Below, in pieces: positions 33,230 through 57,924 of a DNA stretch of 64,000 nucleotides (its first letter is position 1; the number at the start of each line of letters is the position of its first letter). The notes under the pieces are model-generated. The model saw only the letters and a program-made list of their open reading frames with translations, was not told where the DNA came from and ran no database searches. The translations under genes were made by a program, and so were the position numbers. The stretch is from Ostreococcus lucimarinus (Eukaryota), in the NCBI GenBank assembly GCA_000092065.1, contig CP000583.1; one strand, given 5' to 3'.

Positions 33230-33570
33230 GTTCGACGCCCCGCGATCCCGCGATCCCGCGATCCCGCGATCCCGCGATTCGCGTCGCCTCGCGCGTCGTC
33301 GACCGCCGCGTCGTCGTCCCTCCGTCGACGCGCGCGATGAAGTCCCGCGTCGCCGTCGCCGTCGCCGTCGCCGTCGCGCGCGGGATAAACCCTAAGCGAC
33401 GCTTCACGACGCTTCACTCATGGGCTTTATCATCGCTCGAATGCGACGAAAACCATACGAGATCCGATCGGGCGATCGCGCGCGCCGATCGACGCACACC
33501 CGCGTGTGCGAATCCCGCGCGCGCCGATCGACGCACACCCGCGTGTGCGAATCCCGCGCGCGCGATCGCC
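33230..33570. repeat. Promoter-region repeat cluster: (cgcgatcc)5, (gtcgcc)5 and a tandem duplicated 40-bp unit containing the inverted repeat cgcaca-N6-tgtgcg
   Basis: gatcccgcgatcccgcgatcccgcgatcccgcgattcg at ~33235; cgatcgacgcacacccgcgtgtgcgaatcccgcgcgcgc present twice in tandem at ~33487-33565. Confidence 0.8.
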
Positions 33571-33845
33571 CGATCGGATCTCCCGCGCGAATCGGATCGC
33601 GTCGCGACGCGCGATCGATCTCATGGGCTCGAACATCGCGCGAACGCGAGGAAACCGACCGCGCGGGGATTTATATCATTTATATCGCGCCTCGCCCGCG
33701 CGCGCGCGCGTCCGACGTCGCGCGACAGGTCGCGACGCGCGACACGCGGATCGGATCGCGCGCGCGCCCGACGGTCGTCCGACGACGCGCGAACGAGGAC
33801 GACGCGCGACGCGCGAGACCGCGATCGAACGAGGACGCGCGAAGG

Positions 33846-34991
33846 ATGCGCGCGGCGACGACGACGACGCCGATGTCGCGGGCGATGCGGGCAACCGGTG
33901 TGGATAAACCTCGCGCGGTGCGGGCGTCCGCGGTGCGGGCGCGAGCGACGCGGGGAGGCGCGACGCGCGCGCGGGCGGCGGCGCAAGGGATCGAACAGGA
34001 GGTGAAGATCGACGCGGCGCCGACGACGCTGCTGAGAGAGGGATCGGGCGAGGAGGGGGACGCGACGCAGATGCGGGCGAGGTTTGAGAAGATGATTCGC
34101 GCGGCGCAAAATGAGATTTGCGACGCGATCACGGCGTTGGATGGGAAGCCGTTTCACGAGGACGCGTGGACGCGACCGGGTGGTGGTGGTGGGATCTCGC
34201 GCGTGTTGCAAGATGGGAACGTGTTCGAAAAGGCTGGCGTGAACGTGTCGGTGGTGTACGGACAGATGCCGCCCGAGGCGTATCGGGCGGCGACGGGGGA
34301 GGAAGGCGCGTCTAAGGAGATGATTCCGTTCTTCGCGGCGGGTATTTCGAGTGTTATGCACCCGCATAATCCGATGGCGCCGACCGTTCACTTCAACTAC
34401 CGTTATTTCGAGACGGATGCCCCCAAGGGCTCCGCGGGCGCGCCGCGCGCGTGGTGGTTTGGCGGCGGCACGGATTTGACGCCGTCGTACATTTTCGACG
34501 AAGACGTCACGCACTTCCACCAAACTTTGAAGGATATCTGCGATAAGCACGATGGCGAGTTTTACCCGAAGTTCAAGCAATGGGCGGATGATTATTTCAT
34601 GATCAAGCACCGCGGCGAACGTCGCGGCGTCGGCGGCGTCTTCTTTGACGACATGAACGACCGCAGCAAGGATGAACTCCTCGCGTTCGCGACGGACATG
34701 GCGGGCGGTGTCGTCCCGGCGTACGTCCCGCTCGTCGCCAAGCACAAGGACGATGAGTTCACGCCCGAACAACGCGCCTGGCAACAAATGCGCCGCGGTC
34801 GCTACGTCGAGTTCAACCTCGTGTACGACCGCGGGACGACGTTCGGTTTGAAAACCGGCGGTCGCATCGAATCCATCCTCATGTCTCTCCCGCGCTACTG
34901 CGAGTGGCAATACGACCACGCGCCCGAAGCCGGTTCTCGCGAGGCCGACGCGCTCGACGCTTTCAAGAACCCGAGAACGTGGTGCGCGTAA
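33846..34991 (+). CDS. CPOX: Oxygen-dependent coproporphyrinogen III oxidase (HemF/CPOX) with transit peptide
   Basis: [50 protein letters not shown] signature blocks; first plausible ATG ([14 protein letters not shown]) at 33846; TATA-like tttatatcatttatatcg ~160 bp upstream. Confidence 0.9.
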
Positions 34992-35393
34992 GCGCGCCTC
35001 GTCCCTCGAGCGCGTGCTCTCTTAGTTTCGCCTCGTTCCGTCGTCGCGTCGACGCGCGTCGACGCGCCGCCTGCCGAGGCCCCTTTACGCACCATTCAAT
35101 CATTCAAACGACGAAGATTCGAGTTTTAAAATCGAAATCAGAATTCACTCCCGTCGTCCCCGCGTCTCGCGCCCTCTCTCGCCGTCTCGCCCTCGTCCTC
35201 GCGCTCGCCCGCGGGCCACCGGTGGCTCGAGCCTCCGCCTCGCGCCGCGTCGCGTTCCGCACTCCTCCGCGCGCGCGACGTCCGCGCGCTCGACGCCGTC
35301 GCCGAAGAACGTCGACGCGAACGCGCGCGACTTCGTTCGCGCTTTCATCGACACGCACCGAGCTTCGACGCGCGGCGTCGAGCGTCGATCGCG

Positions 35394-50131: not shown

Positions 50132-50422
50132 GTCGTTATGCCGACCGCGACGGCGTCGGGGCGCGCCTCCGCGCGAACGGCGCGCAAACAGTCGGGCGCG
50201 CGCGCGCGGATTTATGATTTCCACGCGCGCGCGGCGCGTCATCGACGTTTGAATCGCCGAATGCGAAAGAAATGAAAATCGGCGAGAAAATCGATGCGCG
50301 CCGAATGTCCGAACGTACAATTAGGGCTTTCCGACGAGGGCTTTGCGATCGCGCGCGGCGCGCGATCCGTCTCTCCGCGACGCCGTCGACGCCTCGCGCG
50401 CGCACACACGAACGCGAACACG

Positions 50423-55624: not shown

Positions 55625-56380
55625 TTAGGACATCGAAAAGACGATGTACAGCGTGTAAAGCATCATGCAAGGATACGTCACGATCATGCGTTTGCCCTCC
55701 GACTGCGGCATCGCCTGTATCAACCCCACGCTCGCCTTTCTCGAGCTCCACGTCACGCAGAGCACCGCGAGCGCCTTGCTCAACATCCCAGTTTTCGAAG
55801 GTAAAAACAGCACGATCCCACTGTACCCCACCACGGGCAGCAGCGCGTAGCCTAAAATACTCCCGCACCGGTTCAACCCGATCCCTTCCCCTCCGCCGAT
55901 GATTTGGTTCAACAACCAGTACATCCCGAGCGACGCGAGCGTGCTCCAACCCAAAATGTACCCAAAGTGCAACTTCCCCGCCAGTAAGTTACACGCGCCC
56001 ATGACGAGACAAAACAACAGCGGTCCCGCGAGATCTTCATCCGTGCTATCCTCGACCCTGAACGGATGCATCACACCCATCGTCCGACGATAAATCTGCT
56101 TCGGATCCACGCCGAGTTCCTCGAGCAACGGCACCTCGTCCTCGACGTGCGCGTACGACCCTCCCACGTCGCCGTCGCGCGCCCCGAACCCGAACCCACC
56201 GCCCTGGTGTCCCGAGCCGTGTCCACCACCCCCCCCGTACCCGTGCGAGCCCGAACTCGTCGCTCGCGGCGCGTACGCGTCGTAGTTCGGGTACGCCTGC
56301 GCGCGATTAAAATCCATAAACTGCATGTTCGCGTTCGCGCCCTGCGCGCCCTGCGGCATCGGTCGCGGTATGTCCGCCAT
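55625..56380 (-). CDS. YIP1: Yip1-domain (YIPF/YIF1-type) Golgi membrane protein
   Basis: Gly-rich N-terminus then EEPLLEELGVD..GPLLFCLVMGACNLLAGKLHFGYILGWS.. multi-TM Yip1 domain; start MADIPRPMPQ ~56380. Confidence 0.75.
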   Translation of the reverse strand: MADIPRPMPQGAQGANANMQFMDFNRAQAYPNYDAYAPRATSSGSHGYGGGGGHGSGHQGGGFGFGARDGDVGGSYAHVEDEVPLLEELGVDPKQIYRRTMGVMHPFRVEDSTDEDLAGPLLFCLVMGACNLLAGKLHFGYILGWSTLASLGMYWLLNQIIGGGEGIGLNRCGSILGYALLPVVGYSGIVLFLPSKTGMLSKALAVLCVTWSSRKASVGLIQAMPQSEGKRMIVTYPCMMLYTLYIVFSMS

Positions 56381-56587
56381 ATCTCGCCGTTCCGTCGCGC
56401 GCGCGTCCGCGTCGCCCGAGACGCGCGTCGCGGTCGCCCGTCGCGCGTCGCGGTGCGTCGCCAACGGGACGCGGCGCGCGCGTCTCGGGCGACGCGAGTC
56501 TCACACACGGACCACGACGCCCGCGACCGCGCGCGGTCTCCTCGCGACCCGCGCGCGCGTTCTCTTCGCGACGCGCGCGACGCGAAC

Positions 56588-56590
56588 ATG
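56588..56590 (+). CDS. RPL39: 60S ribosomal protein L39 (eL39) exon 1: ATG only
   Basis: Only ATG immediately followed by the consensus donor GTGCGTG within 400 bp upstream of exon 2; needed to give the conserved MPSNKTF N-terminus. Confidence 0.45.
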
Positions 56591-56962
56591 GTGCGTGACC
56601 TCGAGCGAGCGACGAAAGACGACGCGAGCGCGAACGACGCGCGCGCCGGTGGCGCGCGACGGCCGGGACGCGCGTCGGGCGGACGCGCGCGGACGGAACG
56701 ACCGCGGACGAGACGCGGCGATCGCGACGACGCGCGCGCGCGTTCGAGGGCGGTCGCGCGCGATGCGATCGTCGCGCGCGCGGTCGGCGCGCGCGGATGA
56801 AGGGTGGATATCGTGAATTCGACGCCGGCGCGGCGCGCGGCGGCGACGGCGGCGGTGGGAGGGCGACGGGCGGGCGATGGGGGGGCGCGGCGCAAGCCCT
56901 AGAGTCGACGACGGCGCGAACGCGACGCGCGGAGGACTGACCGAGACGTTTTATCGACGCAG

Positions 56963-57066
56963 CCGTCCAACAAGACTTTCAAGGTGAAGAAGATTTTGGG
57001 GAAGAAGCAAAAGCAAAACCGCCCGCTTCCCCAATGGATCCGCATGCGCACGGGTAACACCATTCG
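56963..57066 (+). CDS. RPL39: RPL39 exon 2: [34 protein letters not shown](R)
   Basis: Matches eL39 (Arabidopsis [51 protein letters not shown]); acceptor GACGCAG| with branch GGACTGACCGAG; donor CG|GTACGTACG. Confidence 0.85.
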
Positions 57067-57194
57067 GTACGTACGCGTTTAGGTTTTTTCGCGCGACGAG
57101 CGCCGACGAGTCGCGCGAACGACGCGATCGATGACGCGATTTTGACGACGACGACGCGCGAGTACTGACGATGATGATGTGTTCGTACGCGCAG

Positions 57195-57243
57195 CTACAA
57201 CGCGAAGCGTCGACACTGGAGACGCACCAAGCTCAACTTGTAA
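57195..57243 (+). CDS. RPL39: RPL39 exon 3: (R)[15 protein letters not shown]
   Basis: Acceptor CGCGCAG|C, branch AGTACTGACGATG; total CDS 3+104+49 nt = 51 aa + stop. Confidence 0.85.
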
Positions 57244-57591
57244 GCGAGCGCGGTGGGATTTGTGTAGACGAACGAGCAGAGTCGTGTTCGACGTCGGCGC
57301 TCTCGAGCGGAATAGCGTTCTGTAGTGGAACTCGCGCGAGGGCACGAACGGAGATGAGACGAACATCGCACGTAACTTAGCGATTTAAGAAGCAGAATTA
57401 GTTCTTCCTCATCGCGTCGCGCGACGCCGACGCGTCCGCCCGCCCGCGCCGTCGTCTCGTCCCCCGAACGCGCCCTCGCGCGCGCGACGACGTCACGACG
57501 CGCGCGCGACCGCACTCCCATCACTCGCAGTATTATTTCGTATTATTTCAATCTTCATCCATCGCGATCCCGCTTCGCGCGCGATCTCGTC

Positions 57592-57924
57592 TCAACCGTC
57601 GGCGCCTTCGCTCGCGCATCCGTCCCCCTCCCGCGTCGACGTCGCGTCCCCCTCGCGCGCGCCTCGCTCGTCCGGTTCCCTCGCGCTGTCCTCCGTCGTC
57701 CCCTCCCCCATCGCGCGCCCCTCGCTCCTCGTCGCCGCCGTCCCGCCCGCGTCCCGCCGCCGCGCCTCCTCCGCGCTCTTCCGCATCGCCCAATCCGCGC
57801 TGTCGAAGTGTTTCACGTCCGTCGCGATCAACCGCGGTTTCGGTCGCAGATCGTCGCCGTACTTCGCCCTGAACGCGCGCTCCGCCTCCGTCGCCGCCGT
57901 CGCCGCCGTCGCCTCCCGCGCCAT
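57592..57924 (-). CDS. ENSA: Endosulfine/ARPP-19-like (ENSA family) small phosphoprotein
   Basis: MAREATAATAATEAERAFRAKYGDDLRPKPRLIATDVKHFDSADWAMRKS carries the ENSA-family FDSGDY-type Greatwall-site motif (here FDSADW) with upstream AKY and basic stretch; lies in the 3' part of a long antisense artefact ORF. Confidence 0.5.
   Translation of the reverse strand: MAREATAATAATEAERAFRAKYGDDLRPKPRLIATDVKHFDSADWAMRKSAEEARRRDAGGTAATRSEGRAMGEGTTEDSAREPDERGAREGDATSTREGDGCASEGADG

What the first reader, a model, noticed from the sequence alone, without database searches (positions are those of the whole stretch)
56588..57243. Unannotated three-exon RPL39 gene with an ATG-only first exon
No ORF is reported here. 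Translation of 56963-57066 and 57195-57243 gives [50 protein letters not shown], an unmistakable eL39. Exon 2 is bounded by an acceptor CAG preceded by GGACTGACCGAG and a donor GTACGTACG. Exon 3 is preceded by TACTGACGATG...CGCGCAG. The initiator Met must come from a separate exon. The only ATG directly followed by the locus-wide donor consensus (ATG|GTGCGTGACC) lies 372 bp upstream at 56588, giving a 3-nt first coding exon. The gene sits ~200 bp from the divergently transcribed Yip1 gene.
Basis: seen in the sequence. Interest (0 to 1): 0.55.

Follow-up and report, generated by a model that had tools for sequence, protein, structure and literature searches.

The report
Ordinary, already-annotated RPL39 ribosomal protein gene

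Summary
Joining ATG (56588-56590), 56963-57066 and 57195-57243 gives a 51-residue protein. It matches Pfam Ribosomal_L39 (E 6.8e-22) and aligns end to end with solved eL39 chains.

The window is Ostreococcus lucimarinus CCE9901 or something indistinguishable from it. The identical protein is already in GenBank/RefSeq (ABO94982.1, XP_001416689.1), so the gene is not unannotated in public records.

The ATG at 56588 is the only ATG followed by GT between the Yip1 start and exon 2. Its donor, GTGCGTG, is the published O. lucimarinus consensus. Annotated orthologues in O. tauri, Micromonas pusilla and Bathycoccus prasinos all start at ATG|GT and resume at CAG|CCG about 370-425 nt later, in the same Yip1–RPL39–Endosulfine neighbourhood. 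Spliced, transcript-like contigs from sister Ostreococcus lineages read ...ATG|CCGTCCAAC.

Dictyostelium and the fungus Gonapodya share both intron positions. Introns right after the start codon are a documented peculiarity of ribosomal protein genes.

No transcript from this strain itself could be retrieved. Verdict: real, correctly modelled, already known, low interest.

One side observation may deserve a genome-wide test: a plant telo-box-like motif lies in intron 1 or the promoter of RPL39 in all four Mamiellales.

The parts
56561..56587 (+). Inferred 5' UTR part of exon 1. It starts at a pyrimidine motif, TCTCTTCGCGACGC. The transcription start is not mapped.
   Evidence: A CTCTTY motif 22-27 nt upstream of the ATG is conserved in O. 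tauri (GTCTCTTTGCGACGC) and in the spliced contig L003. M. pusilla has GTCTCTTTGCG about 45 nt upstream. The spliced contig L006 carries 18 nt of UTR before the ATG. This is inference, not a mapped start.
56588..56590 (+). Start codon, which is the entire coding part of exon 1.
   Evidence: It is the only one of four ATGs in 56381-56962 that is followed by GT. It is homologous to the annotated first base of the O. tauri, M. pusilla and B. prasinos genes.
56591..56962 (+). Intron 1: 372 nt, phase 0, between codons 1 and 2. Donor GTGCGTG, acceptor CAG.
   Evidence: The donor matches the O. lucimarinus non-chromosome-2 consensus GTGCGTG 7/7 (PMC2483917). The orthologous introns are 383, 388 and 425 nt. 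The junction is spliced in L003, L005 and L006.
56894..56902 (+). Telo-box-like motif AAGCCCTAG inside intron 1 (side observation).
   Evidence: It lies exactly 69 nt before exon 2 both here and in O. tauri. It is also present in L004 and, reversed, in M. pusilla. Bathycoccus has copies in the promoter instead. The pattern occurs only 3 times in the 64-kb window.
56935..56941 (+). Branch-point motif GACTGAC of intron 1. The branch A is at 56940, 22 nt before the last intron base.
   Evidence: It matches ACTGAC, found in 87% of confirmed non-chr2 introns, and 7/8 of the extended GACTGACG. GGACTGACCG is conserved in O. tauri and L004.
56963..57066 (+). Exon 2: codons 2-35 plus the first two bases of Arg36.
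   Evidence: It is 94% identical to O. tauri, against 69% for intron 1 under the same aligner.
57067..57194 (+). Intron 2: 128 nt, phase 2, inside codon Arg36. Donor GTACGTA, branch TACTGACG at 57163-57170, acceptor CAG.
   Evidence: O. tauri has the same position and the same 128-nt length. M. pusilla, Dictyostelium and Gonapodya share the position. Bathycoccus lacks this intron.
57195..57243 (+). Exon 3 coding part: the last base of Arg36, codons 37-51, and the TAA stop at 57241-57243.
   Evidence: It is 96% identical to O. tauri.
57377..57408 (+). Conserved 3' UTR block, TTAGCGATTTAAGAAGCAGAATTAGTTCTTCC. The 3' end of the gene is inferred, not mapped.
   Evidence: A related block, TTAGCGGATTTCATAAG...TAGTTCTTT, is present in O. 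tauri, L003/L004 and L005/L006.
55625..56380 (-). Neighbouring, divergently transcribed Yip1-domain gene (251 aa).
   Evidence: Pfam Yip1 hit at 30 bits. It is 100% identical over 173 aa to the partial O. lucimarinus model XP_001416976.1. The same neighbour is present in O. tauri and M. pusilla.

Best explanation
This is the single nuclear gene for cytosolic large-subunit ribosomal protein eL39 (RPL39) of Ostreococcus lucimarinus.

Transcription starts a few tens of bases upstream of 56588 (inferred). Exon 1 carries a short 5' UTR and ends exactly with the AUG.

A canonical U2-type intron of 372 nt (GTGCGTG ... GACTGAC ... CAG) is removed, joining the AUG to CCG (Pro2). A second canonical intron of 128 nt, inside codon Arg36, is then removed. 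The result is a 156-nt ORF for a 51-residue, highly basic protein.

Shown here: the coding capacity, the splice signals, identity to the public protein, conservation of the architecture in four Mamiellales genomes, and spliced contigs from sister lineages.

Inferred: the transcription start, the poly(A) site, and any expression-enhancing role of the 5'-proximal intron.
For: - Pfam Ribosomal_L39 E 6.8e-22. Alignments over residues 1-51 to solved eL39 show that exactly one residue, Met1, is missing from exons 2 and 3.
- The frame upstream of exon 2 runs into TAG at 56900 with no ATG. Only one of the four upstream ATGs is followed by GT, and that donor is GTGCGTG.
- The exact protein is ABO94982.1 / XP_001416689.1. 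The Yip1 neighbour is 100% identical to a CCE9901 model on the same 982,987-bp record.
- O. tauri, M. pusilla and B. prasinos gene calls span 667, 692 and 581 bp for 51 aa. Each begins ATG|GT and resumes at CAG|CCG.
- Yip1 and Endosulfine flank RPL39 in O. tauri and M. pusilla, and Endosulfine lies downstream in B. prasinos too.
- Spliced contigs L003, L005 and L006 read ATG directly followed by CCGTCCAAC. L004, from the L003 lineage, still carries the 3' part of intron 1.
- Exons are 94-96% identical to O. tauri, with 8 substitutions and 1 amino-acid change. Introns are 69-75% identical, against about 60% for shuffled controls.
- Dictyostelium and Gonapodya share both intron positions.
- Twenty over-extended ORF calls from other organisms, fungi and plants among those that are named, show Q (a read-through CAG acceptor) just before residue 2.
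Against: No cDNA, EST or RNA-seq read from this strain was retrieved. The 56590^56963 junction therefore rests on splice signals, orthology and transcripts of relatives.

The two metagenome scans for the spliced junction found nothing. That collection evidently lacks such transcripts, since the known spliced JGI contigs L005 and L006 were not found either.

The GenBank CDS coordinates of the O. lucimarinus model could not be read.

The 5' and 3' ends of the transcript are unmapped.

I did not verify the library type (RNA or DNA) of L003, L005 and L006. 'Transcript-like' is inferred from the absence of introns that sister contigs or genomes carry.
Confidence: 0.95

Rival explanations
1. The gene is RPL39, but the Met codon comes from a different first exon: another ATG, possibly with a non-canonical donor or lying further upstream.
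For: There is no direct transcript from this strain. With one mismatch allowed, ATGGTGCGTG-like strings are no rarer than chance in the window (4 found, 3.4 expected).
Against: The other three ATGs in the interval (56763, 56797, 56877) are followed by CG, AA and GG. The exact 10-mer occurs once in the 64 kb on both strands, and that occurrence is here. The homologous ATG|GTGCGT is the annotated start in O. tauri and M. pusilla, and ATG|GTACGT is the start in Bathycoccus. The 5' UTRs of spliced contigs from relatives resemble the sequence just upstream of 56588. Further upstream lies the Yip1 coding region on the other strand.
Confidence: 0.03
2. The gene has two exons. Exon 2 extends upstream and translation starts at a non-AUG codon.
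For: Automatic ORF callers make such upstream extensions in many genomes.
Against: The in-frame TAG at 56900 leaves only 20 codons, none of them ATG. A strong branch point and a CAG acceptor sit immediately before Pro2. Full-length eL39 proteins are 51 aa and start M-(P/S/A/G) at this position. Spliced contigs show AUG-CCG.
Confidence: 0.01
3. This is a non-functional copy (pseudogene) of RPL39.
For: None specific.
Against: The ORF, both splice sites and both branch points are intact. The position is syntenic in four genomes. There are 7 synonymous substitutions against 1 replacement relative to O. tauri, while the introns have diverged to near-random similarity. The gene retains introns, so it is not a processed copy. 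Ten assemblies carry an identical gene.
Confidence: 0.01

Closest known systems
O. lucimarinus CCE9901 'Cytosolic 80S ribosomal protein L39' (ABO94982.1 / XP_001416689.1 / UniProt A4RUK8)
   Same: The 51-aa sequence is identical. The neighbouring Yip1 model lies on the same 982,987-bp record and is 100% identical over its 173 aa. This is the same gene.
   Different: Nothing detectable. The record's CDS coordinates could not be read here. That the public model uses the very same ATG therefore follows only from the absence of any alternative.
O. tauri RPL39 (CEF97178.1 / XP_022838527.1; CAID01000003.2, gene span 545639-546305)
   Same: Both start at ATG|GTGCGTG and resume at CAG|CCGTCC. Intron 2 is at the same site and is 128 nt in both. 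The GGACTGACCG branch point is shared, as are the Yip1 and Endosulfine neighbours.
   Different: One residue differs (V9I). Intron 1 is 383 nt rather than 372. The intron sequences are largely diverged.
Micromonas pusilla CCMP1545 MICPUCDRAFT_37283 and Bathycoccus prasinos RPL39
   Same: Both have an intron directly after the start codon (ATG|GTGCGTC and ATG|GTACGTC), with intron 1 of 388 and 425 nt. RPL39 is followed by Endosulfine in both, and the upstream divergent gene hits Pfam Yip1 in M. pusilla.
   Different: Bathycoccus has no intron 2. The proteins are 90% identical or more, but not identical. The upstream divergent gene in Bathycoccus has no Pfam hit on record.
'Start codon introns' of ribosomal protein genes (Nielsen & Wernersson 2006, PMC1626468; Yoshihama et al. 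2002 as quoted there)
   Same: This is a phase-0 intron between codons 1 and 2 in a short, lysine-rich, conserved ribosomal protein. In 20 of 73 human RP genes the ATG is exactly at the 3' end of exon 1.
   Different: [quoted passage not shown] This case simply extends the same pattern.
eL39 genes of Dictyostelium discoideum and Gonapodya prolifera
   Same: Both intron positions are shared: after the ATG in phase 0, and inside the Arg36 codon in phase 2.
   Different: Gonapodya has a third intron near codon 48. Schizosaccharomyces cryophilus has lost all introns.

Membership tests
eL39 / Ribosomal_L39 (PF00832) | Sequence scores above the curated Pfam gathering threshold | tested here: met
   77.3 bits against a cut-off of 21.6, E 6.8e-22, profile positions 1-42 of 42.
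eL39 / Ribosomal_L39 (PF00832) | Full-length collinearity with eL39 chains seen in solved 80S ribosomes (about 51 aa) | tested here: met
   Residues 1-51 align with residues 1-51 of many eL39 chains, E 1e-24 to 1e-20.
eL39 / Ribosomal_L39 (PF00832) | The protein is incorporated in the 60S subunit | not testable with these tools
   This needs proteomics or a ribosome structure from Ostreococcus.
Canonical (non-chromosome-2) Ostreococcus spliceosomal introns | 5' splice site GTGCGTG | tested here: met
   Intron 1 matches GTGCGTG 7/7. Intron 2 is GTACGTA, 5/7, with GT..GT retained. The consensus is from PMC2483917.
Canonical (non-chromosome-2) Ostreococcus spliceosomal introns | Branch-point ACTGAC (extended GACTGACG) upstream of an AG acceptor | tested here: met
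   Intron 1 has GACTGACC at 56935-56942. Intron 2 has TACTGACG at 57163-57170. Both introns end in CAG (consensus).
Canonical (non-chromosome-2) Ostreococcus spliceosomal introns | The introns are actually excised from the transcript | tested here: inconclusive
   Spliced forms were found only for sister lineages (L003, L005, L006). No transcript from this strain was found.
Start-codon-intron genes (Nielsen & Wernersson 2006) | Phase-0 intron exactly between codon 1 (ATG) and codon 2 | tested here: met
   ATG|GTGCGTG ... CAG|CCG here. The annotated orthologues have the same junction, as do the spliced contigs.
Orthologue of Mamiellales RPL39 | Conserved gene neighbourhood and shared intron positions | tested here: met
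   Yip1 (divergent) – RPL39 – Endosulfine (convergent) in the window, O. tauri and M. pusilla; Endosulfine downstream in B. prasinos as well. Intron positions are shared.

The most novel reading that the evidence does not exclude
The start-codon intron of RPL39 may be retained in these intron-poor picoalgae because it carries a plant-type telo-box (AAACCCTAA-like) regulatory element. Together with a TOP-like CTCTTY start motif, this element would coordinate ribosomal-protein gene expression.

The motif lies exactly 69 nt before exon 2 in both O. lucimarinus and O. tauri. It is present in a third Ostreococcus lineage, lies reversed in the Micromonas intron, and has moved to the promoter in Bathycoccus. 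In the about 20 kb of relatives' loci examined it occurs nowhere except at RPL39; the 64-kb window has two further copies, both in divergent promoters.

If it holds for RP genes generally, telo-box control of RP genes would predate land plants. A published statement says it is land-plant specific and absent from Chlamydomonas RP genes (PMC3212954).
Probability: 0.2. Interest if true: 0.35.

Novelty: already known. Interest (0 to 1): 0.07.

Why it matters
It matters little as a discovery. The gene, its product and its exon structure are already in public annotation for this species and its relatives, and introns directly after the start codon are a documented hallmark of ribosomal protein genes.

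The practical lesson is methodological. ORF lists and prokaryote-style gene callers cannot see a gene whose start codon is separated from the rest by an intron. Many public eL39 models and metagenome ORF calls are visibly over-extended through the acceptor for that reason.

Tried and rejected
I reached the same information through the homology search and the cluster look-up.
- Two exact-match scans of metagenome contigs for the spliced junction, ATG+CCGTCCAAC..., returned nothing. This is uninformative, because the JGI spliced contigs L005 and L006 that contain the pattern were not found either.
- An Rfam scan of 56300-57600 at E<=1 found no RNA family. There is therefore no support for an intron-hosted snoRNA. 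The GATGA/CTGA strings in intron 2 are too close together to form a C/D box RNA.
GTGCGTG occurs 18 times on both strands, against about 12 expected from base composition by my own arithmetic. ATGGTGCGTG with up to one mismatch occurs 4 times against 3.4 expected. The consensus comes from the literature instead.
- A second ATGGTGCGT at 35095 on the minus strand lies in the spacer downstream of the plus-strand ORF 33420-34991, and I saw no exon after it. I treated it as chance.
- The upstream motif TCTCTTYGCGA is not enriched in the window: 6 found, 7 expected.
- The look-up of the partial O. lucimarinus Yip1 model, meant to reach the GenBank record and its CDS coordinates, found nothing.
- Ten near-identical environmental contigs showed no variant inside the gene. 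No population-level constraint could be inferred; the contigs only confirm the sequence.

Full report
**1. The observation**

- 56963-57066 translates to [34 protein letters not shown] and leaves two bases, CG.
- C57195 completes that codon as CGC (Arg36). [15 protein letters not shown] follows, and TAA at 57241-57243 is the stop.
- Translated on its own in frame 1, 57195-57243 gives nonsense, because the codon is split.
- ATG + exon 2 + exon 3 gives a clean ORF of 51 codons.

The product scores 77.3 bits on Pfam Ribosomal_L39 against a cut-off of 21.6 (E 6.8e-22). It aligns over residues 1-51 with 51-residue eL39 chains from solved ribosomes. Exons 2 and 3 therefore lack exactly one residue, the initiator Met.

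Ten independent Logan assemblies carry the identical 656-nt gene, so the sequence is not an assembly artefact.

**2. Where the Met comes from**

The reading frame upstream of exon 2 runs into TAG at 56900 without any ATG. The interval from the Yip1 start codon (56380, minus strand) to exon 2 contains four ATGs. Only the one at 56588 is followed by GT.

Its donor, GTGCGTG, is exactly the atypical 5' splice-site consensus reported for O. lucimarinus introns outside chromosome 2. The branch-point motifs also fit: GACTGAC at 56935-56941 and TACTGACG at 57163-57170. They match the ACTGAC/GACTGACG consensus found in 87% and 66.5% of EST-confirmed introns (Irimia & Roy 2008, PMC2483917). Canonical Micromonas introns use AG|GTGCGT and NCTGAC (PMC3879977).

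The exact 10-mer ATGGTGCGTG occurs once in the whole window on both strands, at this spot.

**3. Source and annotation status**

The exact 51-aa protein is ABO94982.1 / XP_001416689.1 / A4RUK8, 'Cytosolic 80S ribosomal protein L39' of Ostreococcus lucimarinus CCE9901. The neighbouring Yip1 ORF is 100% identical over 173 aa to a partial CCE9901 model on the same 982,987-bp record. The window is therefore O. lucimarinus CCE9901 or indistinguishable from it.

The gene is already annotated. Its product begins with Met-Pro-Ser, and no in-frame ATG is available in front of exon 2. The public model must therefore also use a separate ATG exon.

**4. Orthologues**

| Genome | Gene span for 51 aa | Start | Intron 1 | Intron 2 |
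|---|---|---|---|---|
| Window | 656 bp | ATG\|GTGCGTG | 372 nt | inside Arg36, 128 nt |
| O. tauri | 667 bp | ATG\|GTGCGTG | 383 nt | inside Arg36, 128 nt |
| M. pusilla CCMP1545 | 692 bp | ATG\|GTGCGTC | 388 nt | inside Arg36 |
| B. prasinos | 581 bp | ATG\|GTACGTC | 425 nt | absent |

All resume at CAG|CCG (intron 2 lengths).

Endosulfine lies downstream of RPL39 in all of them. The divergent upstream gene hits Pfam Yip1 in the window, O. tauri and M. pusilla; in Bathycoccus it has no Pfam hit on record.

Between the window and O. tauri the exons are 94-96% identical, with 8 substitutions and one amino-acid change (V9I). Under the same aligner the introns reach only 69-75%, against about 60% for shuffled controls. 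That contrast is the signature of coding constraint limited to the proposed exons.

**5. Transcript-like evidence from relatives**

Contigs L005 and L006 (JGI) encode the identical protein from a different Ostreococcus lineage. They read ...GAACGAAATG|CCGTCCAAC..., with no introns and 11-18 nt of 5' UTR.

L003 (Logan ERR1712159) reads ...ACGACATCATG|CCGTCC, with both introns absent. L004, from the same lineage, still carries the 3' part of intron 1 (GGGACTGACCGAGACGTTTTCACCACCGCAG|CCG).

I did not verify whether these libraries are RNA. That they are spliced transcripts is inferred from the contrast with the genomic forms.

No transcript of the window's own strain was found. Those scans were uninformative, because they also missed L005 and L006.

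**6. How ordinary the architecture is**

Dictyostelium discoideum (ATG|GTATGA...TAG|CCA) and the fungus Gonapodya prolifera (ATG|GTCAGT...CAG|CCT) have the start-codon intron. Both also have the phase-2 intron inside Arg36. Schizosaccharomyces cryophilus has no introns.

Among 126 homologues, 20 over-extended ORF calls carry Q (a read-through CAG acceptor) immediately before residue 2; the named ones are fungi and plants, the others unnamed environmental contigs.

[quoted passage not shown] They found ribosomal proteins strongly over-represented among such genes. They quote Yoshihama et al. (2002): in 20 of 73 human RP genes the ATG is exactly at the 3' end of exon 1.

The finding is thus a textbook example of a known pattern, not an oddity.

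**7. Mechanism**

Shown: coding capacity, canonical splice signals, conservation, and spliced products in relatives.

Inferred: transcription starts near the conserved pyrimidine motif TCTCTTC (56561-56567), 22-27 nt upstream of the ATG in the window, O. tauri and L003 and about 45 nt upstream in M. pusilla. Exon 1 would then be roughly 25-30 nt, of which only the last 3 nt are coding.

That 5'-proximal introns are kept in RP genes of intron-poor genomes because they help expression is established general knowledge. It was not tested here.

**8. Verdict**

'Unannotated' holds only for a mechanical ORF list. Novelty: already known. Interest: low.

**9. Side observations**

A telo-box-like motif (AAGCCCTAG, 56894-56902) lies exactly 69 nt before exon 2 here and in O. 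tauri (AGACCCTAA). It is present in L004, reversed in the M. pusilla intron, and present in three promoter copies in Bathycoccus. The pattern occurs only three times in the 64-kb window, all in 5' gene regions, and nowhere else in the fetched O. tauri and Micromonas loci.

Wang et al. (2011, PMC3212954) state that telo-box control of RP genes is land-plant specific and absent from Chlamydomonas RP genes. A genome-wide test in Mamiellales would therefore be cheap and mildly interesting.

Other conserved blocks:
- TTAGGTTTTTTCGC at the 5' end of intron 2.
- A 3' UTR block, TTAGCGGATTTCATAAG...TAGTTCTTT.
- A tandem GTATTATTTC repeat at 57531-57550.

Noticed in passing
window 56894-56902; L002:4318-4326; L004:143-151; L007:2810-2818; L008:2386-2423: A plant telo-box-like motif (RR[ACG]CCCTAR) is associated with RPL39 in all four Mamiellales. 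It lies exactly 69 nt before exon 2 in O. lucimarinus and O. tauri. It is reversed in the Micromonas intron and present as three promoter copies in Bathycoccus. The pattern occurs only 3 times in the 64-kb window (also at 33387 and at 50329 on the minus strand, both in divergent promoters). A published paper says telo-box control of RP genes is land-plant specific (PMC3212954).
   Followed up: partly
window 56561-56574: The pyrimidine motif TCTCTTCGCGACGC lies 27 nt upstream of the ATG. It is conserved as GTCTCTTTGCGACGC in O. tauri, GTCTCTTTGCG in M. pusilla and CCTCTTTCAGACGC in L003. It may be a TOP-like transcription start. It is not enriched elsewhere in the window.
   Followed up: partly
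window 57079-57092 (intron 2): TTAGGTTTTTTCGC, just after the intron 2 donor, is conserved between O. lucimarinus and O. tauri. Intron 2 is exactly 128 nt in both and 75% identical, more than intron 1. A related clade (L004) and Bathycoccus lack this intron.
   Followed up: partly
window 57377-57408 and 57531-57550: There are conserved blocks between the convergent RPL39 and Endosulfine genes. TTAGCG(G)ATTT...TAGTTCTT is shared by several Ostreococcus lineages. A tandem GTATTATTTC x2 is also seen as CGTATTATT repeats in L004 and L005. They may be 3'-end or termination signals.
   Followed up: no
window 55625-56380 (-): The public O. lucimarinus Yip1 model (XP_001416976.1) is a 173-aa partial. 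The window holds an intact 251-aa ORF, and exactly this sequence is called on 17-19 Logan/ENA contigs. The public model appears truncated at both ends.
   Followed up: partly
window 35086-35095 (-): This is the second ATG|GTGCGT string in the window (ATGGTGCGTA). It lies in the spacer downstream of the plus-strand ORF 33420-34991, which looks by eye like coproporphyrinogen oxidase (not tested). No following exon was recognised, so it is probably chance.
   Followed up: partly
L004:1-375 versus L003:935-1195: In an uncultured Ostreococcus lineage (eL39 with KKAKQ...TDNK), one contig retains intron 1 but has no intron 2, and another lacks both. Either intron 2 has been lost in that lineage, as in Bathycoccus, or L004 is a partly spliced transcript.
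   Followed up: no
homologues P0006-P0126: Many public eL39 models and metagenome ORF calls (65-90 aa) are over-extended upstream through the intron 1 acceptor: Q precedes residue 2 in 20 of them. This is a systematic annotation error caused by the ATG-only coding exon.
   Followed up: partly
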